Virus record (IMG/VR): IMGVR_UViG_2531839531_000006
DNA length: 11,753 nucleotides
From: a virus
Lineage: Duplodnaviria; Heunggongvirae; Uroviricota; Caudoviricetes
Strand: one strand, 5' to 3'
Part shown: positions 1-11,753 of the stretch, piece after piece
Layout: the number at the start of each line of letters is the position of its first letter
Position numbering within the stretch: position 1 is the first letter of the stretch
Made by a program: the position numbers and the translations under genes
Notes under the pieces: model-generated
What the model was told of the DNA's origin: nothing
Seen by the model: the letters and a program-made list of their open reading frames with translations, nothing else
Databases searched by the model: none

Positions 1-1284
1 TTACTTCTTCGCCTCTGCAACCACTTTACTACCCACGCCGCGGTTATTGTATTCCCACATGCGGTTGTAGTTAGTGTCATTCAGATTGCGCTGTATTTCG
101 TCGTTATCATCTACGCTGCCGGTATTACCCGCAAACGGACGATTAGAGATCACCGCATCGGCCCACGGTTTAGCCGTGTTAAAACCTTCGTTGATGGCGC
201 TATCACGGATCACCACCTGACCGTTGGTATTGGCATCAACATCCAGCGAGCGGCCCAGTTGCGCCACACCATCACCGAAAGCATTGAAACGGCTGTTTAC
301 GGCGAGGAAACCGTAGTAAATGTTGGACAGCGTAGCCGGTGCAAACACATACGCTTCTTGCTGAGTACGTGAGTTCACCACGCGGAATTCGGTGTTATCG
401 AACACCACTGCGCCGCGACCAGAAACGATATCCACATCCCCTTCAATGTAGCTGTTGGTCACCAGCGTACGCGGCTGATGGTTGGTTTCCAGACGGTTCT
501 GCACACCGCTGTTGGTGACAAAGAAGGTGTTCTGACGACCGAGAATGTTAACGTTGTTAATCTGTACCAGGTCACCATCAGTACGCAGTGCCACCGCCGG
601 ATGGTTACCTGCATCTACGCTATCGCCCAGCGTGTTTTCGATGGTCAGATTTTGCAGTTGCAGGCCATTGTTTTGTGACCAGAAGACCGCAGAGCAGAGA
701 ACACCGATACTGTCGCTGCGTTTGCTCTGGCAGCTATCGTACATATACCACGCTGGTTTACCTGGCATATATTTGCCGCGCGGGTTGACGTCGTGACGCC
801 AGTCGGCAGGGCTCATGCCACCATCAAGGGAAAGCCCAATCTTCACATCAATCGGTTTTTCACCTGTACCGTACAGAGTAATTCCACCCGGAGCGGCAGG
901 GACATATACCGTTCCCTGATACTCACCAGGCATCACGGCAATATACTGGCGCTTGTTGGTACGCTTGATAATTGCCGCATCTACCGCCGCCTGAATCGTG
1001 GTATGCGTTACACCTTGAGTGCCCGCCGGGCCGACAACAAAGTCAGGTTGCGCAGGCAGGGTAATCGGGGAAGGATTCCACGCTGCAGCACCTGGTGTCA
1101 GGGATGCAAAATAGTGTTGAGCATCGAAATTCTGCGCTTCTTTTGCCGACAGAATCGGGCGAGAAGAGGTACCAGGCGCGGTTTGATCAGAAGGACGTTG
1201 ATCGGGCGGGGTTGAGCTACAGGCGGTCAGCGTCACGCCAAAAGCCAATGCCAGCGCCAGACGGGAAACTGAAAATGTGTTCAC
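1..1284 (-). CDS. ybhC: Outer-membrane lipoprotein YbhC (pectinesterase-fold putative acyl-CoA thioesterase); host gene flanking lambda attB
   Basis: Complete 427-aa ORF with stop at 1-3. N-terminus MNTFSVSRLALALAFGVTLTAC is a lipoprotein signal peptide with an LTAC lipobox. Sequence matches my recollection of E. coli YbhC, the gene next to lambda attB. Confidence 0.85.
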   Translation of the reverse strand: MNTFSVSRLALALAFGVTLTACSSTPPDQRPSDQTAPGTSSRPILSAKEAQNFDAQHYFASLTPGAAAWNPSPITLPAQPDFVVGPAGTQGVTHTTIQAAVDAAIIKRTNKRQYIAVMPGEYQGTVYVPAAPGGITLYGTGEKPIDVKIGLSLDGGMSPADWRHDVNPRGKYMPGKPAWYMYDSCQSKRSDSIGVLCSAVFWSQNNGLQLQNLTIENTLGDSVDAGNHPAVALRTDGDLVQINNVNILGRQNTFFVTNSGVQNRLETNHQPRTLVTNSYIEGDVDIVSGRGAVVFDNTEFRVVNSRTQQEAYVFAPATLSNIYYGFLAVNSRFNAFGDGVAQLGRSLDVDANTNGQVVIRDSAINEGFNTAKPWADAVISNRPFAGNTGSVDDNDEIQRNLNDTNYNRMWEYNNRGVGSKVVAEAKK

Positions 1285-1330: not shown

Positions 1331-1345
1331 GCTTTTTTATACTAA
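1331..1345. other. attL core (15-bp lambda att common core GCTTTTTTATACTAA)
   Basis: Exact 15-bp core at 1331..1345. Host-type sequence (B arm) lies to the left and lambda P'-arm sequence to the right, which is the BOP' arrangement of attL. Confidence 0.9.
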
Positions 1346-1370
1346 GTTGGCATTATAAAAAAGCATTGCT

Positions 1371-1418
1371 TATCAATTTGTTGCAACGAACAGGTCACTA
1401 TCAGTCAAAATAAAATCA
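1371..1418. promoter_or_regulatory. attL P' arm: IHF H' site and Int arm-type binding sites
   Basis: TATCAATTTGTTG at 1371..1383 fits the IHF consensus (WATCAAnnnnTTR). CAGGTCACTAT (1391..1401) and CAGTCAAAAT (1402..1411) fit Int arm-type sites, located between the core and the end of int as in lambda. Confidence 0.7.
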
Positions 1419-2489
1419 TTATTTGATTTCAATTTTGTCCCACTCCCTGCCTCTGTCATCACGATACTGTGATGCCATGGTGTCCGACTTATGCCCGAGA
1501 AGATGTTGAGCAAACTTATCGCTTATCTGCTTCTCATAGAGTCTTGCAGACAAACTGCGCAACTCGTGAAAGGTAGGCGGATCCCCTTCGAAGGAAAGAC
1601 CTGATGCTTTTCGTGCGCGCATAAAATACCTTGATACTGTGCCGGATGAAAGCGGTTCACGACGAGTAGATGCAATTATGGTTTCTCCGCCAAGAATCTC
1701 TTTGCATTTATCAAGTGTTTCCTTCATTGATATCCCGAGAGCATCAACATGCAATGTTGTTGGGATGGCAATTTTTACGCCTGTTTTGCTTTGCTCGACA
1801 TAAAGATATCCATCTACGATATCAGACCACTTCATTTCGCATAAATCACCAACTCGTTGCCCGGTAACAACAGCCAGTTCCATTGCAAGTCTGAGCCAAC
1901 ATGGTGATGATTCTGCTGCTTGATAAATTTTCAGGTATTCGTCAGCCGTAAGTCTTGATCTCCTTACCTCTGATTTTGCTGCGCGAGTGGCAGCGACAGG
2001 GTTTGTTGTTATATGGCCTTCAGCTATTGCCTCTCGGAATGCATCGCTCAGTGTTGATCTGATTAACTTGGCTGACGCCGCCTTGCCCTCGTCTATGTAT
2101 CCATTGAGCATTGCCGCAATTTCTTTTGTGGTGATGTCTTCAAGTGGAGCATCAGGCAGACCCCTCCTTATTGCTTTAATTTTGCTCATGTAATTTATGA
2201 GTGTCTTCTGCTTGATTCCTCTGCTGGCCAGGATTTTTTCGTAGCGATCAAGCCATGAATGTAACGTAACGGAATTATCACTGTTGATTCTCGCTGTCAG
2301 AGGCTTGTGTTTGTGTCCTGAAAATAACTCAATGTTGGCCTGTATGGCTTCAGTGATTGCGATTCGCCTGTCTCTGCCTAATCCAAACTCTTTACCCGTC
2401 CTTGGGTCCCTGTAGCAGTAATATCCATTGTTTCTTATATAAAGGTTAGGGGGTAAATCTCGGCGCTCATGACTTCGCCTTCTTCCCAT
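1419..2489 (-). CDS. int: Lambda-type integrase (tyrosine recombinase)
   Basis: 356-aa ORF beginning MGRRRSHERRDLPPNLYIRNNGYYCYRDPRTGKEFGLG, matching lambda Int in length and sequence as I recall it. It lies beside attL and overlaps xis by 23 nt as in lambda. Confidence 0.95.
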   Translation of the reverse strand: MGRRRSHERRDLPPNLYIRNNGYYCYRDPRTGKEFGLGRDRRIAITEAIQANIELFSGHKHKPLTARINSDNSVTLHSWLDRYEKILASRGIKQKTLINYMSKIKAIRRGLPDAPLEDITTKEIAAMLNGYIDEGKAASAKLIRSTLSDAFREAIAEGHITTNPVAATRAAKSEVRRSRLTADEYLKIYQAAESSPCWLRLAMELAVVTGQRVGDLCEMKWSDIVDGYLYVEQSKTGVKIAIPTTLHVDALGISMKETLDKCKEILGGETIIASTRREPLSSGTVSRYFMRARKASGLSFEGDPPTFHELRSLSARLYEKQISDKFAQHLLGHKSDTMASQYRDDRGREWDKIEIK

Positions 2490-2685
2490 TTCTGATCCTC
2501 TTCAAAAGGCTACCTGTTACTGGTCGATTTAAGTCAACCTTTACCGCTGATTCGTGGAACAGATACTCTCTTCCATCCTTAACCGGAGGAGGGAATATCC
2601 TGCACTCGCGTACCCATCGACGAACTGTTTCAAGGCTTCTTGGGCGTCGCTGGCGTGCGTTCCACTCCTGAAGTGTCAAGTACAT
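2467..2685 (-). CDS. xis: Excisionase
   Basis: 72-aa ORF MYLTLQEWNARQRRPRSLETVRRWVRECRIFPPPVKDGREYLFHESAVKVDLNRPVTGSLLKRIRNGKKAKS, matching lambda Xis in length and sequence as recalled. It overlaps the int start. Confidence 0.95.
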   Translation of the reverse strand: MYLTLQEWNARQRRPRSLETVRRWVRECRIFPPPVKDGREYLFHESAVKVDLNRPVTGSLLKRIRNGKKAKS

Positions 2686-2710
2686 CGCAAAGTCTCCGCA
2701 ATTACACGCA

Positions 2711-2733
2711 AGAAAAAACCGCCATCAGGCGGC
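2711..2733 (-). terminator. Putative rho-independent terminator (minus-strand sense) just upstream of xis
   Basis: Plus-strand CCGCC-ATCA-GGCGG (2719..2732) gives a 5-bp GC stem with a 4-nt loop; on the minus strand it is followed by TTTTTTCT (plus-strand A-run 2711..2718). Confidence 0.4.
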
Positions 2734-2783
2734 TTGGTGTTCTTTCAGTTCTTCAATTCGAATATTGGTTACGTCTGCATGTG

Positions 2784-2984
2784 CTATCTGCGCCCACAGC
2801 ATCCAGTGGTCATAGCAGTCGCTGATGTTCTCGGCTTCGATAACTCTGTTGAATGGTTCTCCATTCCATTCACCTGTGACTCGGAAGTGCATTTATCATC
2901 TCCATAAAACAAAACCCGCCGTAGCGAGTTCAGATAAAAGAAATCCTCGTCAGTGCGAGGATGCTGTTCATTGCTGCTATACAC
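2784..2984 (-). CDS. Hypothetical small protein (66 codons, GTG start); possibly non-coding
   Basis: ORF in the six-frame track. The start codon is GTG (plus strand CAC at 2982..2984) with only a weak GAGAG upstream. No recognisable motif. It sits in the non-lambda cassette. Confidence 0.2.
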   Translation of the reverse strand: MYSSNEQHPRTDEDFFYLNSLRRVLFYGDDKCTSESQVNGMENHSTELSKPRTSATAMTTGCCGRR

Positions 2985-3134
2985 TTTTTTGCTCTCAACG
3001 TAAGCGGTAGCCCATTCTGTTGGGTTGGTGCAGTTGCTTTTAGGAAATGCTATTTACCCCTTAAATGTCGGCTGAAAGAGCTAAAATCCATGCAAAAAAT
3101 TTACGCAATTTTGTGTATTATTGTGCAGTAAGTA

Positions 3135-3737
3135 ATGAGCTATTTTCTGCGCAAAAAATGGATGGTAAATTTGTCCGGGTCAGGAAAAATTTTATGGGCG
3201 CTAAACATGAAAAAAGATTCGTATCCTTATTTGATTTGCATGACAGTTTCAGGGCTGATCTTTATTTTCCTTTTCTTCTGGTGGCGGGCAGATATCTACA
3301 GGGTCACGTTTCTTAATCAGAGTATATCCCACTATTACATTCTGTTTAGCATGGGAATAGCTTTTCTGTTATCTCTGTTTTGGGTTAAGAAGGGGATAGT
3401 AAAACAAAGAGGCTGGAAGAGTCTGTCAGCATACCTTAAGGTTTATGCAGGGATGTGCATATTTGCTGGATTTTTTCTGATTATACCCCTTACGACACTA
3501 ACTTATTTTTTGCCTGGAGAGACATCGTCTTATGTTGCACCGTATCGGTATACTTCCGGTAGTTCAAAAAGTTGTTCTGGAGCTGAGGTGGATGACCCCG
3601 ATCTACATGAGAATATTCGCATTTGCTATCCGTATGGCAATTATGAGTACGATAATATTATCTATGTTGAAAAGAAAATTAATATATTAGGTGCGGTAGT
3701 GACATATGCACAGACCGCGCGTGATGATACTGAATGA
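3135..3737 (+). CDS. Hypothetical integral membrane protein (3 predicted TM helices plus a ~70-aa C-terminal soluble domain); cargo gene in the ea-region slot
   Basis: 200-codon ORF on the strand opposite the early operon, in A+T-rich DNA where chance ORFs of this length are unlikely. Three hydrophobic segments: LICMTVSGLIFIFLFFWW, YYILFSMGIAFLLSLFWV, VYAGMCIFAGFFLIIPLTTLTYFL. Start is ambiguous: in-frame ATGs at 3135, 3162 and 3207, none with a strong Shine-Dalgarno. A hairpin terminator follows the stop. Confidence 0.65.
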   Translation: MSYFLRKKWMVNLSGSGKILWALNMKKDSYPYLICMTVSGLIFIFLFFWWRADIYRVTFLNQSISHYYILFSMGIAFLLSLFWVKKGIVKQRGWKSLSAYLKVYAGMCIFAGFFLIIPLTTLTYFLPGETSSYVAPYRYTSGSSKSCSGAEVDDPDLHENIRICYPYGNYEYDNIIYVEKKINILGAVVTYAQTARDDTE

Positions 3738-3771
3738 TATAGTATATAGCGGGCAAGTTTTAGTTAATTTA

Positions 3772-3809
3772 TCGAGGTAATATAATTTACCTCGACTCGT
3801 TTGTTCTGG
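3772..3809 (+). terminator. Putative rho-independent terminator for the plus-strand membrane-protein gene
   Basis: Perfect 9-bp inverted repeat TCGAGGTAA (3772..3780) / TTACCTCGA (3787..3795) with loop TATAAT, followed by T-rich CTCGTTTGTTCT, about 35 nt after the stop at 3737. Confidence 0.45.
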
Positions 3810-3947
3810 TATTAATATTTCGCTTTACGACCGATTTTTATCTGATGATATCATGCGGTTTTCATATACTGACTTACTGTCTTTTCTCCGTTAGCGATTT
3901 TCTCCTGCTCAGCGATGATTTTATCTTTGGCTTCTAGTTAATTTCGC

Positions 3948-4169
3948 TCACTTCGAACCTCTCTGTTTACTGATAAGCTCCAGATCCTCCTGGCAACTTG
4001 CACAAGTCCGACAACCCTGAACGACCAGGCGTCTTCGTTCATCTATCGGATCGCCACACTCACAACAATGAGTGGCAGATATAGCCTGGTGGTTCAGGCG
4101 GCGCATTTTTATTGCTGTGTTGCGCTGTAATTCTTCAATTTCTGATGCTGAATCAATGATGTCTGCCAT
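3948..4169 (-). CDS. TraR/DksA-family C4 zinc-finger protein (lambda orf73-like RNA polymerase-binding regulator)
   Basis: 73-aa ORF with C35-x2-C38-x17-C56-x2-C59 spacing, the TraR/DksA zinc-finger pattern. Size and position are typical of phage TraR homologues upstream of the recombination module. Confidence 0.8.
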   Translation of the reverse strand: MADIIDSASEIEELQRNTAIKMRRLNHQAISATHCCECGDPIDERRRLVVQGCRTCASCQEDLELISKQRGSK

Positions 4170-4218
4170 CTTCCATTAATCCCTGAATTGTTGGTTAATA
4201 CGCTTGAGGGTGAATGCG

Positions 4219-4245
4219 AATAATAAAAAAGGAGCCTGTAGCTCC
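4219..4245 (-). terminator. Putative rho-independent terminator (minus-strand sense) upstream of the TraR-like gene
   Basis: GGAGC-CTGTA-GCTCC hairpin (4231..4245); on the minus strand it is followed by TTTTTTATTATT (plus-strand A-rich 4219..4230). Confidence 0.4.
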
Positions 4246-4267
4246 CTGATGATTTTGCTTTTCATGT

Positions 4268-4579
4268 TCATCGTTCCTTAAAGACGCCGTTTAACATGCC
4301 GATTGCCAGGCTTAAATGAGTCGGTGTGAATCCCATCAGCGTTACCGTTTCGCGGTGCTTCTTCAGTACGCTACGGCAAATGTCATCGACGTTTTTATCC
4401 GGAAACTGCTGTCTGGCTTTTTTGATTTCAGAATTAGCCTGACGGGCAATGCTGCGAAGGGCGTTTTCCTGCTGAGGTGTCATTGAACAAGTCCCATGTC
4501 GGCAAGCATAAGCACACAGAATATGAAGCCCGCTGCCAGAAAAATGCATTCCGTGGTTGTCATACCTGGTCTCTCTCAT
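4268..4579 (-). CDS. Hypothetical protein (lambda orf61 position; 103 codons from the first ATG, or 71 codons from the internal ATG at 4483)
   Basis: ORF whose start overlaps the stop of the upstream ORF by 20 nt. By collinearity the lambda orf61 annotation would end near 4394, but this frame continues to 4268. No motif recognised. Confidence 0.45.
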   Translation of the reverse strand: MRETRYDNHGMHFSGSGLHILCAYACRHGTCSMTPQQENALRSIARQANSEIKKARQQFPDKNVDDICRSVLKKHRETVTLMGFTPTHLSLAIGMLNGVFKER

Positions 4580-4751
4580 CTGCTTCTGCTTTCGCCACCA
4601 TCATTTCCAGCTTTTGTGAAAGGGATGCGGCTAACGTATGAAATTCTTCGTCTGTTTCTACTGGTATTGGCACAAACCTGACTCCAATTTGAGCGAGGCT
4701 ATGTGCCATCTCGATACTCGTTCTTAACTCAACGGGAGATGCTTTGTGCAT
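4560..4751 (-). CDS. Lambda orf63-like hypothetical protein
   Basis: 63-codon ORF at exactly the position and length of lambda orf63, using the offset fixed by exo/bet/gam. Confidence 0.65.
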   Translation of the reverse strand: MHKASPVELRTSIEMAHSLAQIGVRFVPIPVETDEEFHTLAASLSQKLEMMVAKAEADERDQV

Positions 4752-4906
4752 ACAGCTCCCCGTTTATTATTTATCTCCTCAGCCAGCCGCTGTGCTTTCA
4801 GGGGATTTCGGATAACAGAAAGGCCGGGAAATACCCAGCCTCGCTTCGTAACGGAGTAGACGAAAGTGATCGTGCCTACGCGGATATTATCGTGAGGATG
4901 TTTCAT
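4724..4906 (-). CDS. Lambda orf60a-like hypothetical protein
   Basis: 60 codons from [10 protein letters not shown] (the track ORF begins two codons earlier, at 4912). The stop overlaps the next ORF and the start overlaps the exo stop by 4 nt, as in lambda. Confidence 0.6.
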
Positions 4907-5583
4907 CGCCATTGCTCCCCAAATACAAAACCAATTTCAGCCAGTGCCTCGTCCATTTTTTCGATGAACTCCGGCACCATCTCGTCAAAACTCGCTATAT
5001 ACTTTTCATTCCGCTCAATCACGACATAATGCAGGCCTTCACGCTTCATACGCGGGTCATAGTTGGCAAAGTACCAGGCATCTTTTCGCGTCACCCACAT
5101 GCTGTACTGCACCTGGGCCATGTAAGCCGACTTTATGGCCTCGAAACCACCGAGCCGGAATTTCATGAAATCCCGGGAGGTAAACGGGCATTTCAGCTCA
5201 AGGCCATTGCCGTCACTGCATAAACCATCGGGAGAGCAGGCGGTGCGCATACTTTCGTCGCGATAGATGATCGGGGATTCAATAACATTTACGCCGGAAG
5301 TGAACTCAAACAGGGTTCTGGCGTCGTTCTCGTACTGTTTTCCCCAGGCCAGCGCTTTAGCGTTAACTTCCGGAGCCACACCGGTGCAAACCTCAGCTAG
5401 CAGGGTGTGGAAGTAGGACATTTTCATGTCAGGCCACTTCTTTCCTGATCGGGGCTTTGCTATCACGTTGTGAACTTCTGAAGCGGTGATGACGCCGAGC
5501 CGTAATTTGTGCCATGCATCATCCCCCTGTTCGACAGCTCTCACGTCGATCCCGGTACGCTGCAGGATAATGTCCGGTGTCAT
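4903..5583 (-). CDS. exo: Lambda exonuclease (Red-alpha, 5'-3' dsDNA exonuclease)
   Basis: 226-aa [43 protein letters not shown], matching lambda Exo in length and sequence as recalled. 4-nt overlap with bet. Confidence 0.95.
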
Positions 5584-6365
5584 GCTGCCACCTTCTGCTC
5601 AGTGGCTTTCTGTTTCAGGAATCCAAGAGCTTTCACTGCTTCGGCCTGTGTCAGTTCTGACGATGCGCGAATGTCGCGGCGAAATATCTGGGAACAGAGC
5701 GGCAATAAGTCGTCATCCCATGTTTTATCCAGGGCGATCAGCAGAGTGTTAATCTCCTGCATGGTTTCATCGTTAACCGGAGTGATGTCGCGTTCCGGCT
5801 GACGTTCTGCAGTGTATGCAGTATTTTCGACAATGCGCTCGGCTTCATCCTTGTCATAGATACCAGCAAATCCGAAGGCCAGACGGGCACACTGAATCAT
5901 GGCTTTATGCCGTAACATCCGTTTGGGATGCGACTGCCACGGTCCGGTGATTTCTCTGCCTTCGCGGGTTTTGAATGGTTCGCGGCGGCATTCATCCATC
6001 CACTCGGTAACGCAGATCGGATGATTGCGGTCTTTGCGGTAAATCCGGCATGTGCAGGATTCGTTGTCCTGTTCAAAGTCCATGCCGTCAAACTGCTGGT
6101 TTTCGTTGATGATGCGGGACCAGCCATCAACGCCCACCACCGGAACGATGCCGTTCTGCTTATCAGGGAAGGCGTAAATTTCTTTCGTCCACGGATTAAG
6201 ACCGTACTGGTTGGCGACGATCAGCAATGCGATGAACTGCGCATCGCTGGCATCACCTTTAAATGCCGTCTGGCGAAGAGTGGTGATCAGTTCCTGTGGG
6301 TCGACAGAATCCATGCCGACTCGTTCAGCCAGCTTCCCAGCCAGCGTTGCGAGTGCTGTACTCAT
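5580..6365 (-). CDS. bet: Red-beta single-strand annealing protein
   Basis: 261-aa [69 protein letters not shown], matching lambda Bet in length and sequence as recalled. Confidence 0.95.
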
Positions 6366-6370
6366 CCGTT

Positions 6371-6787
6371 TTATACCTCTGAATCAATATCAACCTGGTG
6401 GTGAGCAATGGTTTCAACCATGTACCGGATGTGTTCTGCCATGCGCTCCTGAAACTCAACATCGTCATCAAACGCACGGGTAATGGCTTTTTTGCTGGCC
6501 CCGTGGCGTTGCAAATGATCGATGCATAGCGATTCAAACAGGTGCTGGGGCAGGCCTTTTTCCATGTCGTCTGCCAGTTCTGCCTCTTTCTCTTCTCGGG
6601 CGATCTGCTGGTAGTGACGCGCCCAGCTCTGAGCCTCAAGACGATCCTGAATGTAATAAGCGTTCATGGCTGAACTCCTGAAATAGCTGTGAAAATATCG
6701 CCCGCGAAATGCCAGGCTGATTAGGAAAACAGGAAAGGGGGTTAGTGAATGCTTTTGCTTGATCTCAGTTTCAGCATTAATATCCAT
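6371..6787 (-). CDS. gam: Gam, RecBCD inhibitor (long form; internal start gives GamS)
   Basis: 138-aa [64 protein letters not shown], matching lambda Gam in length and sequence as recalled. Confidence 0.95.
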
Positions 6788-6885
6788 TTTTTATAAGCGT
6801 CGACGGCTTCACGAAACATCTTTTCATCGCCAATAAAAGTGGCGATAGTGAATTTAGTCTGGATAGCCATAAGTGTTTGATCCAT
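6742..6885 (-). CDS. kil: Kil (FtsZ-targeting host-killing protein)
   Basis: 47 codons from [47 protein letters not shown], with ATG at 6883..6885. Overlaps the gam start by 46 nt and cIII by 32 nt as in lambda. The 89-codon track ORF is an upstream extension. Confidence 0.85.
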
Positions 6886-7018
6886 TCTTTGGGACTCCTG
6901 GCTGATTAAGTATGTCGATAAGGCGTTTCCATCCGTCACGTAATTTACGGGTGATTCGTTCAAGTAAAGATTCGGAAGGGCAGCCAGCAACAGGCCACCC
7001 TGCAATGGCATATTGCAT
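6854..7018 (-). CDS. cIII: CIII (FtsH inhibitor that stabilises CII)
   Basis: 54 codons from [54 protein letters not shown], with ATG at 7016..7018. The 78-codon track ORF is an upstream extension. Confidence 0.85.
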   Translation of the reverse strand: MQYAIAGWPVAGCPSESLLERITRKLRDGWKRLIDILNQPGVPKNGSNTYGYPD

Positions 7019-7090
7019 GGTGTGCTCCTTATTTATACATAACGAAAAACGCCTCGAGTGAAGCGTTATTGGTATGCGGTAAAACCGCAC

Positions 7091-7459
7091 TCAGGCGGCC
7101 TTGATAGTCATATCATCTGAATCAAATATTCCTGATGTATCGATATCGGTAATTCTTATTCCTTCACTACCATCCATTGGAGGCCATCCTTCCTGACCAT
7201 TTCCATCATCCCAGTCGAACTCACAAACAACACCATATGCATTTAAGTCTTTCGAAAGTGCTATAAGCAGAGCATGTTGCGCCAGCATGATTAATACAGC
7301 ATTTAATAAAGAGCCGTGTTTATTGAGTCGGTATTCAGAGTCTGACCAGAAATTATTAATCTGGTGAAGTTTTTCCTCTGTCATTACGTCATGGTCGATT
7401 TCAATTTCTATTGATGCTTTCCAGTCGTAATCAATGATGTATTTTTTGATGTTTGACAT
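7091..7459 (-). CDS. ea10: Ea10 early protein
   Basis: 122-aa ORF MSNIKKYIIDYDWKASIEIEIDHDVMTEEKLHQINNFW, at the lambda ea10 position and length. Confidence 0.85.
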   Translation of the reverse strand: MSNIKKYIIDYDWKASIEIEIDHDVMTEEKLHQINNFWSDSEYRLNKHGSLLNAVLIMLAQHALLIALSKDLNAYGVVCEFDWDDGNGQEGWPPMDGSEGIRITDIDTSGIFDSDDMTIKAA

Positions 7460-7479
7460 CTGTTCATATCCTCACAGAT

Positions 7480-7505
7480 AAAAAATCGCCCTCACACTGG
7501 AGGGC
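7480..7505 (-). terminator. Rho-independent terminator (minus-strand sense) between ral and ea10, in the lambda tL2 region
   Basis: GCCCTC-ACACTG-GAGGGC hairpin (7488..7505), followed on the minus strand by TTTTTT (plus-strand A-run 7480..7485). Confidence 0.5.
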
Positions 7506-7567
7506 AAAGAAGATTTCCAATAATCAGAACAAGTCGACTCCTGTTTAGTTACGAGCGACATTGCTCC

Positions 7568-7595
7568 GTGTATTCACTCGTTGGAATGAATACAC
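7568..7595. repeat. Perfect 9-bp inverted repeat GTGTATTCA-N10-TGAATACAC
   Basis: Read directly from the sequence, in the ea10-ral intergenic region. No flanking T-run on the minus strand, so it is not a typical terminator. Confidence 0.5.
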
Positions 7596-7662
7596 AGTGC
7601 AGTGTTTATTCTGTTATTTATGCAAAAAATAAAGGCCACTATCAGGCAGCTTTGTTGTTCTG

Positions 7663-7842
7663 TTAACCAAGTTCTCTGGCAATCATTGCCGTCGTTCGTA
7701 TTGCCCATTTATCGACATATTTCCCATCTTCTATTACAGGAAACATTTCTTCAGGCTTAACCATGCATTCCGATTGCAGCTTGCATCCATTGCATCGCTT
7801 GAATTGTCCACACCATTGATTCTTATCAATAGTCGTAGTCAT
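7663..7842 (-). CDS. ral: Ral (restriction alleviation), C-terminally truncated: 59 codons ending at an in-frame TAA; the same frame continues KQNNKAA to a TGA at 7642, the lambda-length 66 codons
   Basis: Translates MTTTIDKNQWCGQFKRCNGCKLQSECMVKPEEMFPVIEDGKYVDKWAIRTTAMIARELG then TAA (plus-strand TTA at 7663..7665). ATG is at 7840..7842. Not in the supplied track because it is under 60 codons. Confidence 0.7.
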   Translation of the reverse strand: MTTTIDKNQWCGQFKRCNGCKLQSECMVKPEEMFPVIEDGKYVDKWAIRTTAMIARELG

Positions 7843-7912
7843 ACGGATAGTCCTGGTACTGTTCCATTACATCCTGCGGATGCTCTTCGAACTCTTCAAA
7901 TTCTTCTTCCAT
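7826..7912 (-). CDS. Lambda orf28-like small acidic protein
   Basis: 28 codons MEEEFEEFEEHPQDVMEQYQDYPYDYDY; its stop overlaps the ral start, at the lambda orf28 position. Confidence 0.55.
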   Translation of the reverse strand: MEEEFEEFEEHPQDVMEQYQDYPYDYDY

Positions 7913-8036
7913 ATATCACCTTAAATAGTGGATTGCGGTAGTAAAGATTGTGCCTGTCTTTTAACCACATCAGGCTCGGTGGTTCTCGTGTACCCCTACA
8001 GCGAGAAATCGGATAAACTATTACAACCCCTACAGT

Positions 8037-8591
8037 TTGATGAGTATAGAAATGGATCCACTCGTTATTCTCGGACGAGTGTTCAGTAATGAACCTCTGG
8101 AGAGAACCATGTATATGATCGTTATCTGGGTTGGACTTCTGCTTTTAAGCCCAGATAACTGGCCTGAATATGTTAATGAGAGAATCGGTATTCCTCATGT
8201 GTGGCATGTTTTCGTCTTTGCTCTTGCATTTTCGCTAGCAATTAATGTGCATCGATTATCAGCTATTGCCAGCGCCAGATATAAGCGATTTAAGCTAAGA
8301 AAACGCATTAAGATGCAAAACGATAAAGTGCGATCGGTAATTCAAAACCTTACAGAAGAGCAATCTATGGTTTTGTGCGCAGCCCTTAATGAAGGCAGGA
8401 AGTATGTGGTTACATCAAAACAATTCCCATACATTAGTGAGTTGATTGAGCTTGGTGTGTTGAACAAAACTTTTTCCCGATGGAACGGGAAGCATATATT
8501 ATTCCCTATTGAGGATATTTACTGGACTGAATTAGTTGCCAGCTATGATCCATATAATATTGAGATAAAGCCAAGGCCAATATCTAAGTAA
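8037..8591 (+). CDS. sieB: SieB superinfection exclusion protein (membrane protein; an internal in-frame start would give Esc)
   Basis: 184-aa ORF of exactly lambda sieB length and position, convergent with and abutting the N stop. Hydrophobic segments MYMIVIWVGLLLLSP and VFVFALAFSLAI. Confidence 0.9.
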   Translation: MMSIEMDPLVILGRVFSNEPLERTMYMIVIWVGLLLLSPDNWPEYVNERIGIPHVWHVFVFALAFSLAINVHRLSAIASARYKRFKLRKRIKMQNDKVRSVIQNLTEEQSMVLCAALNEGRKYVVTSKQFPYISELIELGVLNKTFSRWNGKHILFPIEDIYWTELVASYDPYNIEIKPRPISK

Positions 8592-8915
8592 CTAGGTAAG
8601 AGGAATCGATTTTCCCTTAATTTTCTGGCGTCCACTGCATGTTATGCCGCGTTCGCCAGGCTTGCTGTACCATGTGCGCTGATTCTTGCGCTCAATACGT
8701 TGCAGGTTGCTTTCAATCTGTTCGTGGTATTCAGCCAGCACTGTAAGGTCTATCGGATTCAGTGCGCTTTCTACTCGTGATTTCGGTTTGCGATTCAGCG
8801 AGAGAATAGGGCGGTTAACTGGTTTTGCGCTTACCCCAACCAACAGGGGATTTGCTACTTTCCATTGAGCCTGTTTCTCTGCGCGACGTTCGCGGCGGCG
8901 TGTTTGTGCATCCAT
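8592..8915 (-). CDS. N: N transcription antitermination protein
   Basis: 107 codons from MDAQTRRRERRAEKQAQWKVANPLLVGVSAKPVNRPILSLNRKPKSRVESALNPIDLTVLAEYH, including the arginine-rich RNA-binding motif. Shine-Dalgarno AGGAGA precedes the ATG at 8913..8915. The 137-codon track ORF is an upstream extension. Confidence 0.9.
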   Translation of the reverse strand: MDAQTRRRERRAEKQAQWKVANPLLVGVSAKPVNRPILSLNRKPKSRVESALNPIDLTVLAEYHEQIESNLQRIERKNQRTWYSKPGERGITCSGRQKIKGKSIPLT

Positions 8916-9025
8916 CTGGATTCTCCTGTCAGTTAGCTTTGAGTAACGCGCCGTGATGCTTATCCCCACGGTTGCTGTCTTGCAGCTGCATTTCGCGCTA
9001 CTCAAAGCTTTCTGCTTTGAATGCT

Positions 9026-9159: not shown

Positions 9160-9345
9160 ATCTGTATGTTTTTTATATGGATTTATTTTTTCGAGTGAGT
9201 GTATTGCCTCGGCGATGTAAGGAGAGATCAGAATTGCGTTGTTTAGTGAGTGTAACCGGCTCATTTAAACCGTCTGGTCTGTTTCCTCCGGCTCTACAAA
9301 AATAATGTCCATCATTTTTGAACTGCGCCCCAGATCTTGGACAAC

Positions 9346-10209
9346 TTATGCAGCCTGACTCAATCGATATTGTACCGGGCTAAGACCGCCAAGTTTTTCC
9401 TTTATCCTCAATTGATTATAATAGTTTATGTAATCAATGATGTCTCGCTTTAAGTCCTCCACATTTTTATATTCATTGAGGTAATAACATTCTGATTTCA
9501 ATGTTCCAAAAAAGCTCTCTATAACTGCATTATCAAGACAATTTCCCCGGCGAGACATACTCTGGACTATACCGCTATCCTTTAACCATCGTTGCCACCG
9601 GGACATCTGATATTGCCAACCTTGATCGCTGTGCAGTATGGGGTGTTCATCTTTCGACAGCTGTTTCAGCGCATCCGTAAGCATAGTCTGCACCATTGAA
9701 GGTTGAGGGCGAGTGGCGAGGTTATAGGAAATTATTTCTCCATTATAAAGATCCATGACGGGCGACAAATACAGCTTCTTGCCATTCACTTTAAATTCAG
9801 TGACATCTGTAACCCACTTCTCGTTGGGGCGTTTTGCATCAAAATTGCGTTTCAGGAGATTATCGCAAATTCGTCCTTGTTCTCCTTTATATGAACGGTA
9901 TTTTTTAACGCGGATCAGGCTGCTAATACCCAGTTCCTTCATCAGTTTTCTGACGGTTTTACCATTAAGTAAAACCCCCTCGTTACGACATGCCAGCCTG
10001 ATGCGTCTGTAACCATAGCGGCCTTTGTGCTGGTGATAAATTTTCAGCACAAGCGCTCTGGCAGACTGATACCGGTCAGGAGCAGCAAGCCGTCTGACAT
10101 GATAGTAAAATGTACTCCGGGGCAGCCCGGAAACAATTAACAATCGGGACAATGGCCATTCCTGCCTTAGTTCATTCACAATGCTCACTTTTTCCTGAAC
10201 GTTGAGCAT
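9346..10209 (-). CDS. IS3-family transposase OrfB (DDE catalytic domain; expressed as OrfAB fusion by -1 frameshift)
   Basis: 287-aa ORF containing HSDQGWQY, RKGNCLDNAV and YYN motifs typical of IS3/IS150 OrfB. Overlaps orfA by 25 nt in the -1 frame. Confidence 0.85.
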   Translation of the reverse strand: MLNVQEKVSIVNELRQEWPLSRLLIVSGLPRSTFYYHVRRLAAPDRYQSARALVLKIYHQHKGRYGYRRIRLACRNEGVLLNGKTVRKLMKELGISSLIRVKKYRSYKGEQGRICDNLLKRNFDAKRPNEKWVTDVTEFKVNGKKLYLSPVMDLYNGEIISYNLATRPQPSMVQTMLTDALKQLSKDEHPILHSDQGWQYQMSRWQRWLKDSGIVQSMSRRGNCLDNAVIESFFGTLKSECYYLNEYKNVEDLKRDIIDYINYYNQLRIKEKLGGLSPVQYRLSQAA

Positions 10210-10691
10210 GTTTTCTGCTGAACCAAGGCTTTCAGCTTTTTTAAGTAGGCATTCTCGACCCTGAGTTGTTCAAGTTCTTCTCTCTCATCTTTGGTTAATG
10301 TTGGTAGTGGTGGTGCTGAAATGGCGCTTTTATCCGGCACAGGAATACTCTTTTTATTTTTTCGAATGAAAGCATCTTCGCCATATTTTCTATATTTTTC
10401 AAGCCAGTTGCATACAGTACCAAAGGCTGGTATTCCGTGTTTTACCGCTACTTCACGAACAGAAAAACAGTCATCCACGACTTCTTTTACTACTGTGAGT
10501 TTTAACTCAGCAGAATAGCGTCCTTTTTTACCCGTAAGTATGCTTATCCCATGTTCCCGATAGGCATAAGCCCATTTTCTTACTGTGCAGGGACTGATAC
10601 CGTACATCCTTGCTACAGATTTCAGACTCAACTCTCCCTCCAGGTACTTTTCTGATACTACCTTTTTGAACTCCAATGAAAACTTTTCCAT
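10185..10691 (-). CDS. IS3-family transposase OrfA (HTH plus leucine zipper)
   Basis: 168-aa ORF with an N-terminal helix-turn-helix (SVARMYGISPCTVRKWAYAY) and a C-terminal coiled coil (EELEQLRVENAYLKKLKALV). Confidence 0.85.
   Translation of the reverse strand: MEKFSLEFKKVVSEKYLEGELSLKSVARMYGISPCTVRKWAYAYREHGISILTGKKGRYSAELKLTVVKEVVDDCFSVREVAVKHGIPAFGTVCNWLEKYRKYGEDAFIRKNKKSIPVPDKSAISAPPLPTLTKDEREELEQLRVENAYLKKLKALVQQKTCSTFRKK
10236..10242 (-). other. Programmed -1 ribosomal frameshift heptamer A AAA AAG (orfA to orfB)
   Basis: Plus-strand CTTTTTT at 10236..10242 is AAAAAAG on the coding strand, in the orfA/orfB overlap, as in other IS3-family elements. Confidence 0.7.
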
Positions 10692-10758
10692 GCATCCTCA
10701 GTTTTTGGTCTGGTGTCTAACCTTTGGGGCGCAGTTCATTTTTAATGGACACTATCGT

Positions 10759-11406
10759 ATGAAACACCGGACCTGGATCACTGAAGCTTTACGTCTTCAC
10801 TTTGAAGAACATTTACCCCGGGTTGTGGCCGGGCGTCGCCTGGGTGTACCAAAATCAACAGTTTGTAGTATGTTCGTGCGCTTTCGGAGAGCTGGCCTTT
10901 CGTGGCCTTTGCCCGCAGGCATGTCGGAGCAGGAACTTGATGCCTGCCTTTACGGACAATTTTCCACGGTACCAGTCGTACGTCCTGAAAGCACCGTTAT
11001 ATCCGAAGCCCCCGTGGTAAAAAAACGTCCCCGGCGGCCCAACTTCCCTTATGAGTTTAAAATCGCCTTAGTGGAGCAGTCACTGCAGCCCGGAGCCTGT
11101 GTGGCGCAGATCGCCCGGGAAAACGGAATCAACGATAACCTGCTCTTCAACTGGCGCCATCAATACCGGAAAGGTGGCCTGCTGCCTTCCGGAAAAAATA
11201 TGCCGGCACTGCTTCCCGTGACGTTAACGCCGGAGCCGGATAATAAAATCCCGGCCCCCGCACAGGAACCAGAGCAGATAAATACACCGTCCGACAGTCT
11301 GTGTTGTGAGCTGGTTCTGCCGGCCGGAACTCTCAGGCTTAAAGGTAAACTGACGCCGGCGTTATTACAGACACTTATCCGCGAAATAAAAGGGAGCAGC
11401 CACTGA
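10759..11406 (+). CDS. IS66-family Orf1 (TnpA-like accessory protein); start codon uncertain
   Basis: C-terminal part (RPRRPNFPYEFKIALVEQSLQPGACVAQIARENGINDNLLFNWRHQYRKGG ... CELVLPAGTLRLKGKLTPALLQTLIREIKG) is typical of IS66 Orf1. First in-frame ATG outside the IS3 element is at 10759 (MKHRTW...) and lacks a good Shine-Dalgarno. The 273-codon track ORF begins inside the IS3 inverted repeat and is an artefact. Confidence 0.5.
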   Translation: MKHRTWITEALRLHFEEHLPRVVAGRRLGVPKSTVCSMFVRFRRAGLSWPLPAGMSEQELDACLYGQFSTVPVVRPESTVISEAPVVKKRPRRPNFPYEFKIALVEQSLQPGACVAQIARENGINDNLLFNWRHQYRKGGLLPSGKNMPALLPVTLTPEPDNKIPAPAQEPEQINTPSDSLCCELVLPAGTLRLKGKLTPALLQTLIREIKGSSH

Positions 11407-11753
11407 TGATATCTCTCCCTGCAGGTTCGCGTATCTGGCTGGTTGCAGGTATCACCGATATGCGAAATGGCTTTAACGGCCTGGCATCAAAAGTTCAGAA
11501 CGTCCTGAAGGATGACCCGTTCTCCGGACACCTGTTCATCTTCCGCGGACGCCGGGGTGACCAGATAAAAGTGTTGTGGGCTGACAGTGACGGACTGTGC
11601 CTCTTCACCAAACGCCTGGAGCGGGGCCGCTTCGTCTGGCCAGTCACCCGTGACGGCAAGGTGCACCTTACTCCGGCTCAGTTATCCATGCTTCTTGAAG
11701 GTATCAACTGGAAGCACCCGAAACGAACGGAACGCGCTGGAATCCGCATATAA
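11406..11753 (+). CDS. IS66-family TnpB (Orf2)
   Basis: 115-aa ORF MISLPAGSRIWLVAGITDMRNGFNGLASKVQNVLKDDPFSGHLFIFRGRRGDQIKVLWAD, matching IS66-family TnpB as I recall it. Its ATG overlaps the orf1 TGA (TGATG). Stop is at the window end. Confidence 0.85.
   Translation: MISLPAGSRIWLVAGITDMRNGFNGLASKVQNVLKDDPFSGHLFIFRGRRGDQIKVLWADSDGLCLFTKRLERGRFVWPVTRDGKVHLTPAQLSMLLEGINWKHPKRTERAGIRI

What the first reader, a model, noticed from the sequence alone, without database searches (positions are those of the whole stretch)
2686..3947. Cassette replacement with boundaries at the xis start and the TraR-like gene stop
From exo to N every gene boundary sits at a single constant offset from the lambda coordinates I recall, and int/xis are lambda-like. 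Similarity appears to break exactly at the xis start codon (2685/2686) and the stop of the TraR-like gene (3947/3948). The replaced segment is about 1.26 kb against about 1.3 kb in lambda. Terminator-like hairpins at 2711..2733 and 3772..3809 flank the cargo. This looks like a defined exchange point where lambdoid phages swap accessory genes.
Basis: partly seen in the sequence, partly recalled or inferred. Interest (0 to 1): 0.5.

Follow-up and report, generated by a model that had tools for sequence, protein, structure and literature searches.

The report
Phage-434-type accessory cassette in lambda prophage

Summary
A sharp cassette replacement is real, but its limits are 2963..3935 (973 bp), not 2686..3947. 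It replaces lambda 29356..30379 (1024 bp, ea8.5 + ea22). Identity to lambda is 92-100% up to 2962, about 25% (random) across the cassette, and 98-100% from 3936.

The left joint lies at the foot of the tL4 terminator hairpin (2943..2962). The right joint lies five codons into the ea22 start, which overlaps the orf73 (TraR-like) stop. Bases 2686..2962 (t'I terminator, ORF55, tL4) are lambda sequence.

The same cassette is in phages 434, mEp332 and 2B8 and in 916 of 5426 complete E. coli genomes. The full lambda arrangement is in only 156. Eighty related loci show at least 15 size classes of other content in this slot, so it is a recurrent exchange slot.

The cargo is a + strand gene (3207..3737, 176 aa) with three membrane helices and a small beta-barrel containing two invariant cysteines. 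dN/dS is 0.1-0.2, and the gene has its own terminator and low G+C. It matches no Pfam, NCBIfam or PADLOC model. Homologues sit in the gpA-gpQ defence hotspot of P2-like prophages (untested system 4 of Rousset et al. 2022). A role in superinfection exclusion or defence is plausible but unproven.

This is textbook mosaicism; only the cargo is mildly interesting.

The parts
1331..1345 (+). attL core; start of lambda homology next to host gene ybhC (1..1284, - strand)
   Evidence: Homology to lambda starts at window 1331 = lambda 27724, the annotated att core 27724..27738.
1419..2489 (-). int, lambda-type tyrosine integrase (backbone, left flank)
   Evidence: 98.5% identical to lambda over 1331..2962; annotated as integrase in lambda, 434 and mEp332.
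2467..2685 (-). xis, excisionase (backbone); its start codon is NOT a breakpoint
   Evidence: Identity to lambda is 0.98-1.00 in the 50-bp bins on both sides of 2685.
2710..2733 (-). t'I terminator hairpin just upstream of pI/xis. It is backbone sequence. It is also a separate mosaic joint, where phage 434 carries an extra ORF114 module.
   Evidence: Annotated as terminator t'-I in M60848 and as terminator in OL657226. The scan finds a hairpin with a T run on the - strand. Fold -16.1 kcal/mol, z -3.3. The 434 insert lies at 2713..2716.
2725..2892 (-). ORF55 (lambdap35 homologue), backbone gene of unknown function
   Evidence: PHROG_676 E 5.5e-40. Annotated as ORF55 or hypothetical protein in lambda, 434 and mEp332.
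2912..2931 (-). First of two tandem terminator-like hairpins between the cassette and ORF55 (backbone)
   Evidence: hairpin followed by UUUUGUUUUAU on the - strand RNA.
2943..2962 (-). tL4 terminator hairpin; the left joint of the cassette is the base after it (2962/2963)
   Evidence: The t-L4 feature of M60848 maps to window 2936..2966. HK022 record X51962 also annotates a tL4 terminator within the stretch aligned to this part of the window. Hairpin plus U tract found. Window-type, lambda-type, L039/L045-type and L055-type sequences all diverge right after ...GCGAGGAT.
2963..3935 (.). The replaced cassette (434-type allele), 973 bp, unrelated to lambda 29356..30379 (ea8.5 + ea22)
   Evidence: No BLAST similarity to lambda. 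Global identity of 497 matches equals the shuffled expectation of 511. 99.8% identical to mEp332 and 98.5% to 434 and 2B8. Present in 916 of 5426 complete E. coli genomes. G+C 0.34-0.41 against 0.45-0.50 in the flanks.
2961..3131 (+). 56-aa ORF, probably not a gene
   Evidence: Annotated in the 434 and mEp332 records but not by PGAP in RefSeq genomes. No family hit. It straddles the limit of the unit shared with P2-like prophages, which starts at 3070.
3070..3206 (+). Upstream region that travels with the gene (presumed promoter/regulatory region). It includes the direct repeat TTGTGTA-N3-TTGTGCA at 3111..3127.
   Evidence: 76% nucleotide identity to P2-like prophage L099 over 3070..3827. Conserved upstream block in alignment A2. 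No sigma-70 match of 9/12 or better upstream of 3207, so the promoter is inferred, not shown.
3207..3737 (+). Cargo gene: a 176-aa protein with three membrane helices and a C-terminal five-strand beta-barrel carrying invariant Cys123 and Cys140. The longest ORF starts at 3135, but that extension is not conserved.
   Evidence: Homologues are 169-178 aa and all begin at this Met. L099 has an in-frame stop upstream. dN/dS 0.10-0.21. AlphaFold pLDDT 86 for the whole protein and 90 for the C-terminal domain. No Pfam, NCBIfam or PADLOC hit. PHROG_1416, function unknown.
3772..3795 (+). Terminator-like hairpin of the cargo gene
   Evidence: 9-bp stem followed by CUCGUUUGUU on the + strand. Fold -12.9 kcal/mol, z -3.5. 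It lies inside the unit shared with P2-like prophages.
3934..3951 (-). Remnant of the ea22 start: GTG AGC GAA ATT AAC TAG (M-S-E-I-N-stop). The right joint at 3935/3936 falls inside the stop codon.
   Evidence: Read from the sequence. Every other allele continues as MSEINSQALREAAE....
3948..4169 (-). orf73, TraR/DksA-family zinc-finger protein (backbone, right flank)
   Evidence: Pfam zf-dskA_traR scores 34.8 bits against a cut-off of 24.9. 98-100% identical to lambda from 3936 on. Lambda Orf73 is characterised in PMC9239242.

Best explanation
**Shown**
- The window is a lambda-type prophage at the ybhC-side attachment site.
- It carries the phage-434 allele of a hypervariable, non-essential slot in the leftward (pL) operon.
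- The slot lies between orf73 (TraR-like) and the tL4 terminator.
- In lambda the slot holds ea22 and ea8.5. Here a 973-bp unrelated segment (2963..3935) takes their place.
- The right joint keeps the orf73 stop and five codons of ea22. The left joint is the base after the tL4 hairpin.

**Inferred: how the exchange works**
- The allele arose once by illegitimate joining.
- It now spreads by ordinary homologous recombination (RecA or the phage's own Red system) in the 95-100% identical flanks. These are orf73-exo on one side and tL4-ORF55-t'I-xis-int on the other.
- Exchange happens between co-resident or infecting lambdoid phages and prophages, including defective ones such as this.

**The cargo**
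- Shown: the cargo is a self-contained unit on the opposite strand. It has a conserved upstream region, a 176-aa gene and its own terminator.
- Shown: it encodes a three-helix protein, predicted to sit in the inner membrane, with a small beta-barrel. The gene is under purifying selection.
- Inferred: the barrel faces the periplasm.
- Inferred, about 35% likely: the protein is made in the lysogen and acts at the envelope to exclude or abort superinfecting phages.
- About equally likely: another envelope-related benefit to the host.
For: **Breakpoints**
- HSPs against lambda are 1331..2962 and 3936..8941, with nothing between them.
- Identity in 50-bp bins falls from 0.92 to 0.28 at 2962/2963 and rises from 0.28 to 0.98 at 3935/3936. 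Cassette identity to the lambda segment equals that of shuffled sequence.

**Same allele in viable phages**
- 434, mEp332 and 2B8 carry it.

**Frequencies in 5426 complete E. coli genomes**
- The cassette is in 916 genomes.
- The orf73 flank is in 3317 genomes at 4727 places.
- The full lambda allele is in 156 genomes.

**Recurrent slot**
- About 30 of 80 IMG/VR loci carry this allele.
- The rest carry at least 15 size classes (1024 to 3250 bp). Their contents include Ea22/Ea8.5 variants, dATP/dGTP pyrophosphohydrolase-DUF551, LprI, DUF2513, an invasin-D4-like protein, LysR plus a PACE transporter, and IS1.
- Unrelated sequences abut the same tL4 hairpin.
- tL4 and t'I are annotated in M60848.

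**Exchange mechanism**
- Relaxed homologous recombination between lambdoid phages and defective prophages by Red has been shown experimentally in general (De Paepe et al. 2014, PMC3945230).

**Cargo**
- The family is conserved, with dN/dS 0.1-0.2.
- The structure models are confident.
- Low G+C and its own terminator.
- The unit 3070..3827 is shared at 76% nucleotide identity with a P2-like prophage.
- Homologues of 55-78% identity lie between the portal gene Q and gpA in P2-like prophages of E. coli, Salmonella and Klebsiella.
- That locus is the defence hotspot of Rousset et al. 2022. Their Table S5B lists a 51%-identical 3-TM protein as system 4, with 470 occurrences.
- The gene stays intact in the decayed Sp3 prophage of O157:H7.
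Against: **Exchange**
- No recombination event was observed here. Homologous exchange in the flanks is inferred from the pattern.
- The uniform right breakpoint is a single historical joint, not repeated events.

**Cargo function**
- No experimental or homology evidence exists for any function. There is no PADLOC hit.
- The motif is absent from Rousset's table of tested systems.
- In the Enterobacter cloacae complex the family is a syntenic chromosomal gene next to a LysR regulator. That points to a host envelope role rather than defence.
- No recognisable sigma-70 promoter lies upstream, so expression in the lysogen is not shown.
Confidence: 0.8

Rival explanations
1. One reading: a 1.26-kb cassette bounded exactly by the xis start codon and the TraR-like stop codon, with terminator hairpins at 2711..2733 and 3772..3809 bracketing the cargo.
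For: The right boundary is within 12 bp of the true joint. Both hairpins exist.
Against: Bases 2686..2962 are 96% identical to lambda 29079..29355. Identity is 0.92-1.00 in every 50-bp bin there. The first hairpin is lambda/434 t'I in backbone DNA. The second is internal to the cassette.
Confidence: 0.03
2. The cassette is moved by a dedicated mechanism, either integron-like site-specific capture at a hairpin site or transposition, rather than by homologous recombination in the flanks.
For: The left joint coincides with a hairpin that several unrelated cassettes abut. An integrase gene lies 500 bp away.
Against: No shared repeat or att-like site is present at both ends, and there are no terminal inverted repeats or target duplications. 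The hairpin is an annotated transcription terminator. The right joint lies inside a coding sequence (the ea22 start). Left joints are scattered over at least seven positions between 2763 and 2988. Lambda Int acts at attP, about 1.6 kb away (established knowledge).
Confidence: 0.03
3. The cargo is a lysogenic-conversion or host-physiology envelope protein captured from an Enterobacter-like chromosome. It would act, for example, in envelope stress, colonisation or resistance to a non-phage agent, and not against phages.
For: Orthologues of 36-45% identity lie in a conserved, non-prophage chromosomal locus beside a LysR regulator in six Enterobacter species. No defence-model hit. Other alleles of the slot carry non-defence cargo such as LprI, an invasin-like protein and a PACE efflux transporter.
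Against: The phage-borne branch recurs in the P2 gpA-gpQ locus, which is enriched for anti-phage systems. Small phage-encoded inner-membrane proteins are a common form of superinfection exclusion (lambda SieB, P22 SieA, HK97 gp15; from memory).
Confidence: 0.35
4. The segment is debris of prophage decay: non-functional DNA left by deletion and rearrangement in a defective prophage.
For: This prophage is defective. It is cut off after N by insertion sequences.
Against: The identical cassette is in the plaque-forming phages 434, mEp332 and 2B8. The gene is intact and under purifying selection.
Confidence: 0.02
5. The cassette is a functional substitute for ea22/ea8.5, that is, a different way of tuning the lysis-lysogeny decision or host replication.
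For: It occupies the same slot as ea22, ea8.5 and their neighbours, which influence lysogenisation and host replication (PMC7093339, PMC9239242).
Against: It is transcribed against the pL operon and has its own terminator. It is a membrane protein, and it also occurs in P2-like prophages that lack the lambda regulatory circuit.
Confidence: 0.07

Closest known systems
Phage 434 ORF55 / tL4 / 'ORF-22+' region (GenBank M60848; OL657226 genes CPT_434_35 and CPT_434_36)
   Same: The same cassette at 98.5% identity with the same right and left joints, the same tL4 and t'I terminators, and the same + strand membrane-protein gene.
   Different: 434 has an extra 436-bp ORF114 module inserted at the t'I hairpin (window 2713..2716), which this window lacks. 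The 434 record starts the gene at a TTG 12 codons upstream of the conserved Met.
Lambda exo-xis region, ea22 + ea8.5 segment (lambda 29356..30379)
   Same: Same slot, same flanking genes (orf73 on one side; tL4, ORF55 and xis on the other), and similar length (1024 against 973 bp).
   Different: Unrelated sequence. Lambda's two genes are on the pL strand and are soluble proteins (Pfam Ead_Ea22, Lambda_ea8_5). Here one gene lies on the opposite strand and encodes a membrane protein. Only five codons of ea22 remain.
Morons of lambdoid phages (Juhala/Hendrix concept; for example HK97 gp15, lambda bor and lom)
   Same: A single accessory gene with its own terminator and deviant G+C. It is transcribed independently of the surrounding operon and sits at a module boundary.
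   Different: It replaces genes rather than being added between genes that are adjacent elsewhere. Its promoter is not identified. Expression from the prophage is not shown.
P2 gpA-gpQ (old/tin) anti-phage hotspot, system 4 of Table S5B in Rousset et al. 2022 (PMC9122126)
   Same: The cargo protein is 51% identical (E 2e-56) to that single-gene '3 TM' system. Homologues of 55-78% identity lie at that locus in E. coli, Salmonella and Klebsiella.
   Different: A different phage family and a different slot. That system has no reported test of defence, because its motif is absent from the table of tested systems.
Phage inner-membrane superinfection-exclusion proteins (lambda SieB, P22 SieA, HK97 gp15)
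   Same: A small prophage-encoded protein with predicted membrane helices. SieB itself lies 4.3 kb away on the same strand in this window (8037..8591).
   Different: No sequence or fold similarity was detected. The resemblance rests on location and protein type only.

Membership tests
Lambdoid mosaic module exchange (accessory slot of the exo-xis region) | Flanks nearly identical to a related phage, with abrupt loss of similarity | tested here: met
   Identity is 92-100% up to 2962 and from 3936 on, and about 25% in between. The change occurs within one 50-bp bin on each side.
Lambdoid mosaic module exchange (accessory slot of the exo-xis region) | Alternative, unrelated sequences occupy the same slot in related phages | tested here: met
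   At least 15 size classes among 80 loci with an orf73 that is at least 97% identical.
Lambdoid mosaic module exchange (accessory slot of the exo-xis region) | Joints fall at gene or signal boundaries | tested here: met
   The left joint is the base after the tL4 hairpin. The right joint is at the orf73-stop/ea22-start overlap. Other joints lie at the ORF55 start (2890) and at t'I (2705..2716).
Lambdoid mosaic module exchange (accessory slot of the exo-xis region) | The allele occurs in viable phages, not only in decayed prophages | tested here: met
   Complete genomes of 434, mEp332 and 2B8 carry it.
Lambdoid mosaic module exchange (accessory slot of the exo-xis region) | Exchange proceeds by homologous recombination in the flanks | not testable with these tools
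   Inferred from the pattern and from De Paepe et al. 2014 (PMC3945230). It needs genetic crosses.
Moron (autonomous accessory transcription unit) | Own transcription terminator | tested here: met
   Hairpin 3772..3795 with a T-rich tail on the + strand. It is conserved as part of the unit shared with P2-like prophages.
Moron (autonomous accessory transcription unit) | Own promoter | tested here: inconclusive
   No sigma-70 match of 9/12 or better between 2963 and 3206. About 120 bp upstream is conserved across phage families.
Moron (autonomous accessory transcription unit) | Base composition differs from its neighbours | tested here: met
   G+C is 0.34-0.41 over 3000..3900 against 0.45-0.50 in the flanks.
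Moron (autonomous accessory transcription unit) | Added between genes that are adjacent in relatives | tested here: not met
   It replaces ea22 + ea8.5. No relative was seen with orf73 directly abutting tL4.
Anti-phage defence / superinfection exclusion | Similarity to a known defence protein model | tested here: not met
   No PADLOC hit at E <= 1. No informative fold match.
Anti-phage defence / superinfection exclusion | Recurrent location in a validated defence hotspot | tested here: met
   Homologues lie between gpQ and gpA of P2-like prophages. Listed as system 4, with 470 occurrences, in Rousset et al. Table S5B.
Anti-phage defence / superinfection exclusion | Confers protection against phage infection | not testable with these tools
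   No experiment was found. The motif is absent from the table of tested systems, and there is no literature on ECs0804.
Integron-like or transposon cassette | Conserved recombination site or terminal repeats at both ends | tested here: not met
   No repeat pair brackets 2963..3935. The left joints are scattered.
TraR/DksA family (right-flank gene orf73) | C4 zinc-finger domain above the Pfam gathering score | tested here: met
   PF01258 scores 34.8 bits against a cut-off of 24.9. The TIGR02419 score of 54.7 bits is below its cut-off of 59.7.

The most novel reading that the evidence does not exclude
The 176-aa protein (three membrane helices plus a beta-barrel) is a new single-gene superinfection-exclusion or abortive-infection protein. 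It moves between the P2 gpA-gpQ defence hotspot and the lambdoid orf73-tL4 slot. That would make the latter a lambdoid counterpart of the P2 hotspot. The conserved TTGTGYA-N3-TTGTGCA repeat upstream has the spacing of a lambda CII box. It might even allow induction by an incoming lambdoid phage.
Probability: 0.25. Interest if true: 0.55.

Novelty: already known. Interest (0 to 1): 0.25.

Why it matters
As a mosaic joint it only re-describes what the modular theory of lambdoid phages and the phage 434 records already show.

Two points have some practical value:
- In sequenced E. coli, the 434-type allele of this slot is about six times more common than lambda's own ea22 + ea8.5 arrangement (916 against 156 genomes). 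Studies of the 'exo-xis region' based on lambda therefore describe a minority arrangement.
- The cargo belongs to an uncharacterised membrane-protein family. It is common in two unrelated prophage hotspots and is present in O157:H7, O104:H4 and ETEC H10407. It is a cheap, well-defined candidate for a phage-exclusion test.

Tried and rejected
- **Family searches of the cargo.** Pfam, NCBIfam and PADLOC gave nothing. PHROGs gave one family of unknown function.
- **Rfam scan of 2400..4300.** No RNA family found.
- **Repeat search for transposon or integron signatures around the cassette.** Only short two-copy chance matches turned up. One is TTxTAGTTAATTT at 3758 and 3932, which I do not consider meaningful.
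- **The CII-binding site annotated in the 434 record (window 3111..3124).** The same repeat is conserved in P2-like prophages, which have no CII. The boxes are TTGT, not the TTGC of known CII sites (the TTGC consensus is recalled from memory). I treat it as unexplained, not as a CII site.
- **The 200-aa reading of the ORF (start 3135).** Rejected. Homologues start at Met25, and a P2-like copy has an in-frame stop upstream.
- **Exact source of the window.** The prophage/IS junction is not present in any of the 5426 complete E. coli genomes.
Full report
**What the window is.**
The window starts in the host gene ybhC (1..1284, - strand). It enters a lambda-type prophage at the att core (1331..1345).

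Gene order is int (1419..2489), xis (2467..2685), ORF55 (2725..2892), orf73/TraR-like (3948..4169), orf61/63/60a homologues, exo (4903..5583), bet, gam, kil, cIII, ea10, ral, sieB (+ strand) and N.

Lambda homology ends at 9191, shortly past nutL. An IS3-family element and IS66-like accessory genes follow. The prophage is therefore defective.

**Checking the observation.**
BLAST against lambda NC_001416 gives two long colinear matches:
- window 1331..2962 = lambda 27724..29355 (98.5%);
- window 3936..8941 = lambda 30380..35386 (98.2%, one 1-bp indel).

Nothing aligns in between, even with 7-base words.

In 50-bp bins, identity is 0.92-1.00 up to 2962 and 0.24-0.28 from 2963. It is 0.08-0.34 up to 3935 and 0.98-1.00 from 3936. 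A global alignment of the cassette with lambda 29356..30379 gives 497 matches. Shuffled versions of that lambda segment give a mean of 511. The two sequences are therefore unrelated.

So a sharp replacement exists, but it spans 2963..3935 (973 bp against 1024 bp in lambda). Bases 2686..2962 match lambda 29079..29355 at 96%. The right boundary is off by 12 bp.

**Anatomy of the joints.**
*Left.* On the - strand (the pL transcript), two hairpins sit in tandem at 2962..2943 and 2931..2912. Each is followed by a U-rich tract. The 434 record M60848 annotates the first as terminator t-L4, and the HK022 record X51962 annotates a tL4 terminator in the corresponding stretch. The cassette begins at the base after this hairpin.

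*Right.* The - strand reads GTG AGC GAA ATT AAC TAG from 3951 to 3934. This is the ea22 start codon overlapping the orf73 stop (GTGA), then four more ea22 codons, then a stop whose last two bases belong to the cassette.

It lies in backbone DNA. It is a separate joint, where 434 has an extra ORF114 module bracketed by two similar hairpins. The hairpin at 3772..3795 is inside the cassette.

**Is it a recurrent exchange slot?**
A scan of IMG/VR with the orf73 protein returned 80 loci that are at least 97% identical in that protein. About 30 carry this cassette.

The others carry different DNA between orf73 and the tL4/ORF55 region. The size classes are 1024 (lambda type), 1038, 1485, 1517, about 2275-2286, 2346, 2371, 2398, 2702, 3031, 3242, 3250, 1308, 1705 and about 1990 bp.

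All of these begin with an Ea22-family gene (MSEINSQALREAAE...). After that they contain various combinations of the following:
- Ea8.5-family genes;
- dATP/dGTP pyrophosphohydrolase-DUF551;
- LprI;
- a lipoprotein plus DUF2513;
- an invasin-D4-like protein;
- LysR plus a PACE efflux protein;
- IS1.

None hit PADLOC.

Relative to the window, every one of them breaks at 3935/3936. That is one comparison, the 434-type against Ea22-types that share the Ea22 N-terminus. It is not many independent events.

On the left, several unrelated sequences diverge at the same base after ...GCGAGGAT. These are the window type, the Ea8.5 family and the PACE-transporter type. Other joints lie at 2939, 2946, 2973, 2988, 2772 and 2763. 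Further backbone joints lie at 2890 (ORF55 start) and at 2705..2716 (t'I).

The slot is therefore real and multi-allelic, and its joints cluster at terminators and gene ends. No repeats or att-like sites bracket the cassette.

**How common is this allele?**
The counts below are among 5426 complete E. coli genomes.

| Sequence searched | Genomes | Places |
|---|---|---|
| orf73 right flank | 3317 | 4727 |
| This cassette | 916 | 927 |
| Lambda ea8.5 + ea22 segment, at least 80% covered | 156 | not recorded |

Genomes with the cassette include O157:H7 (prophage Sp3, gene ECs_0804), O104:H4 and ETEC H10407.

Sampling is biased towards pathogens. Even so, the 434-type allele is clearly not rare. 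It is also present in the complete phage genomes 434, mEp332 and 2B8. That excludes an origin in prophage decay.

**The cargo.**
The only convincing gene is on the + strand.
- *Start.* The longest ORF is 3135..3737 (200 aa). The homologues are 169-178 aa and all start at Met25 (3207), and a P2-like copy has an in-frame stop upstream.
- *Selection.* dN/dS against copies that are 78%, 71% and 59% identical is 0.12, 0.10 and 0.17.
- *Structure.* AlphaFold models are confident (pLDDT 86 overall, 90 for the C-terminal domain). They show three long helices (residues 5-29, 38-61, 70-101) and a five-strand beta-barrel. The barrel carries invariant Cys123 and Cys140 and a CSGA motif.
- *Topology (inferred).* The basic loop between helices 2 and 3 and the cysteine pair suggest an N-in topology with a periplasmic barrel.
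- *Family and fold.* No Pfam, NCBIfam or PADLOC family matches. PHROG_1416 has no known function. Fold searches give only generic matches.
- *The 56-aa ORF at 2961..3131.* It is annotated in two phage records but not by PGAP. It has no relatives and crosses the edge of the portable unit, so I do not count it as a gene.

**Where else the cargo occurs.**
The unit 3070..3827 comprises the upstream region, the gene and the terminator. It is 76% identical in DNA to a segment of a P2-like prophage of E. coli.

Homologues of 55-78% identity in E. coli, Salmonella and Klebsiella all lie between the portal gene Q and the replication gene A of P2-like prophages. Rousset et al. 2022 defined that locus as an anti-phage hotspot (PMC9122126). 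Their Table S5B lists a single '3 TM' protein without Pfam as system 4, with 470 occurrences. It is 51% identical to the window protein (E 2e-56). Its motif is absent from their table of tested systems, so it appears untested.

The same cassette also occurs in a prophage remnant beside torI/dsdC, and in argW/csc-associated remnants where ORF114 replaces ORF55.

In contrast, orthologues of 36-45% identity in six Enterobacter species sit in a conserved chromosomal locus next to a LysR regulator. The family is confined to Enterobacteriaceae.

**Most likely mechanism.**
*The swap.* An allele created once by illegitimate joining is now passed between lambdoid phages and prophages by homologous recombination in the highly similar flanks. 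This is the classical explanation of lambdoid mosaicism. Red-mediated relaxed recombination with defective prophages has been demonstrated in general (PMC3945230). It was not tested here.

*The cargo.* It is an autonomous, oppositely transcribed unit that encodes an envelope protein. Three things favour a benefit to the lysogen: recurrence in two unrelated prophage hotspots, survival in decayed prophages, and purifying selection. I put superinfection exclusion or defence at about 35%. Another envelope-related host function is about equally likely. The Enterobacter chromosomal branch and the absence of any defence signature argue against over-reading the hotspot association.

**Comparison with what is known, and verdict.**
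The cassette is the phage 434 arrangement. It was deposited with tL4, t'I and ORF55 annotated (M60848) and again in 2022 (OL657226).

The exo-xis region and the diversity of ea22 are the subject of a series of papers (PMC3824215, PMC7093339, PMC8614690). orf73 is a characterised TraR homologue (PMC9239242).

The finding is therefore a correct recognition of a known kind of feature, with an inaccurate left boundary. The only open item is the function of the cargo family.

Noticed in passing
window 9191..11753: Lambda homology stops at 9191, just past nutL/oL. From about 9251 the sequence matches an IS3-family element (transposase ORFs 9346..10209 and 10185..10691) sitting in an IS66-like element (tnpA about 10765..11406, tnpB 11406 onwards; ISCro1-like by RefSeq annotation). 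This IS composite is common on plasmids. The junction with the prophage is not found in any of the 5426 complete E. coli genomes.
   Followed up: partly
window 8942..9002: A 61-bp patch between the N start codon and nutL has no similarity to lambda. The flanks match at 98% and 93%. This is a small mosaic patch in the N leader.
   Followed up: no
window 2705..2716; L002 (phage 434) 2050..2500: Phage 434 has a 436-bp ORF114 module inserted at the t'I hairpin, bracketed by two similar terminator hairpins. The same ORF114 replaces ORF55 (joint at window 2890) in prophage remnants next to the csc sucrose genes (L012, L049, L067, L086) and next to torI/dsdC (L005).
   Followed up: partly
window 3111..3127 and alignment A2: The direct repeat TTGTGTA-N3-TTGTGCA lies upstream of the cargo gene. 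It fits the TTGY-N6-TTGY pattern that the 434 annotators marked as a CII site. It is also conserved upstream of the homologues in P2-like prophages, which have no CII. Its meaning is unexplained.
   Followed up: partly
L008 and L078, at window position 3198: In two IMG/VR loci the cargo region is interrupted at the same point. The interrupting sequences look like IS10/Tn10 ends (recognised from memory, not tested).
   Followed up: no
L090, L105-L108, L112, L113: In the Enterobacter cloacae complex the cargo family is a chromosomal gene in conserved synteny. It lies 17 bp downstream of a LysR-type regulator and is convergent with a GGDEF protein gene. This may be the source of the phage-borne copies.
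   Followed up: partly
L103: A 3.6-kb contig filed under a 'Candidatus Nanosynbacter' metagenome-assembled genome encodes a copy of the cargo protein that is 100% identical at the protein level. It is almost certainly an E. coli prophage contig binned by mistake.
   Followed up: no
L096-L098 (Klebsiella P2-like prophages), 2281..5623: In the P2 hotspot of Klebsiella the cargo homologue sits next to a 790-aa AAA_16-like protein and a 279-aa protein on the other strand. This may be a separate defence candidate.
   Followed up: no
L073 5591..6288; H91/H92: IS1 insertions occur inside the slot, within or next to ea22, in several E. coli genomes. This fits the region being dispensable.
   Followed up: no
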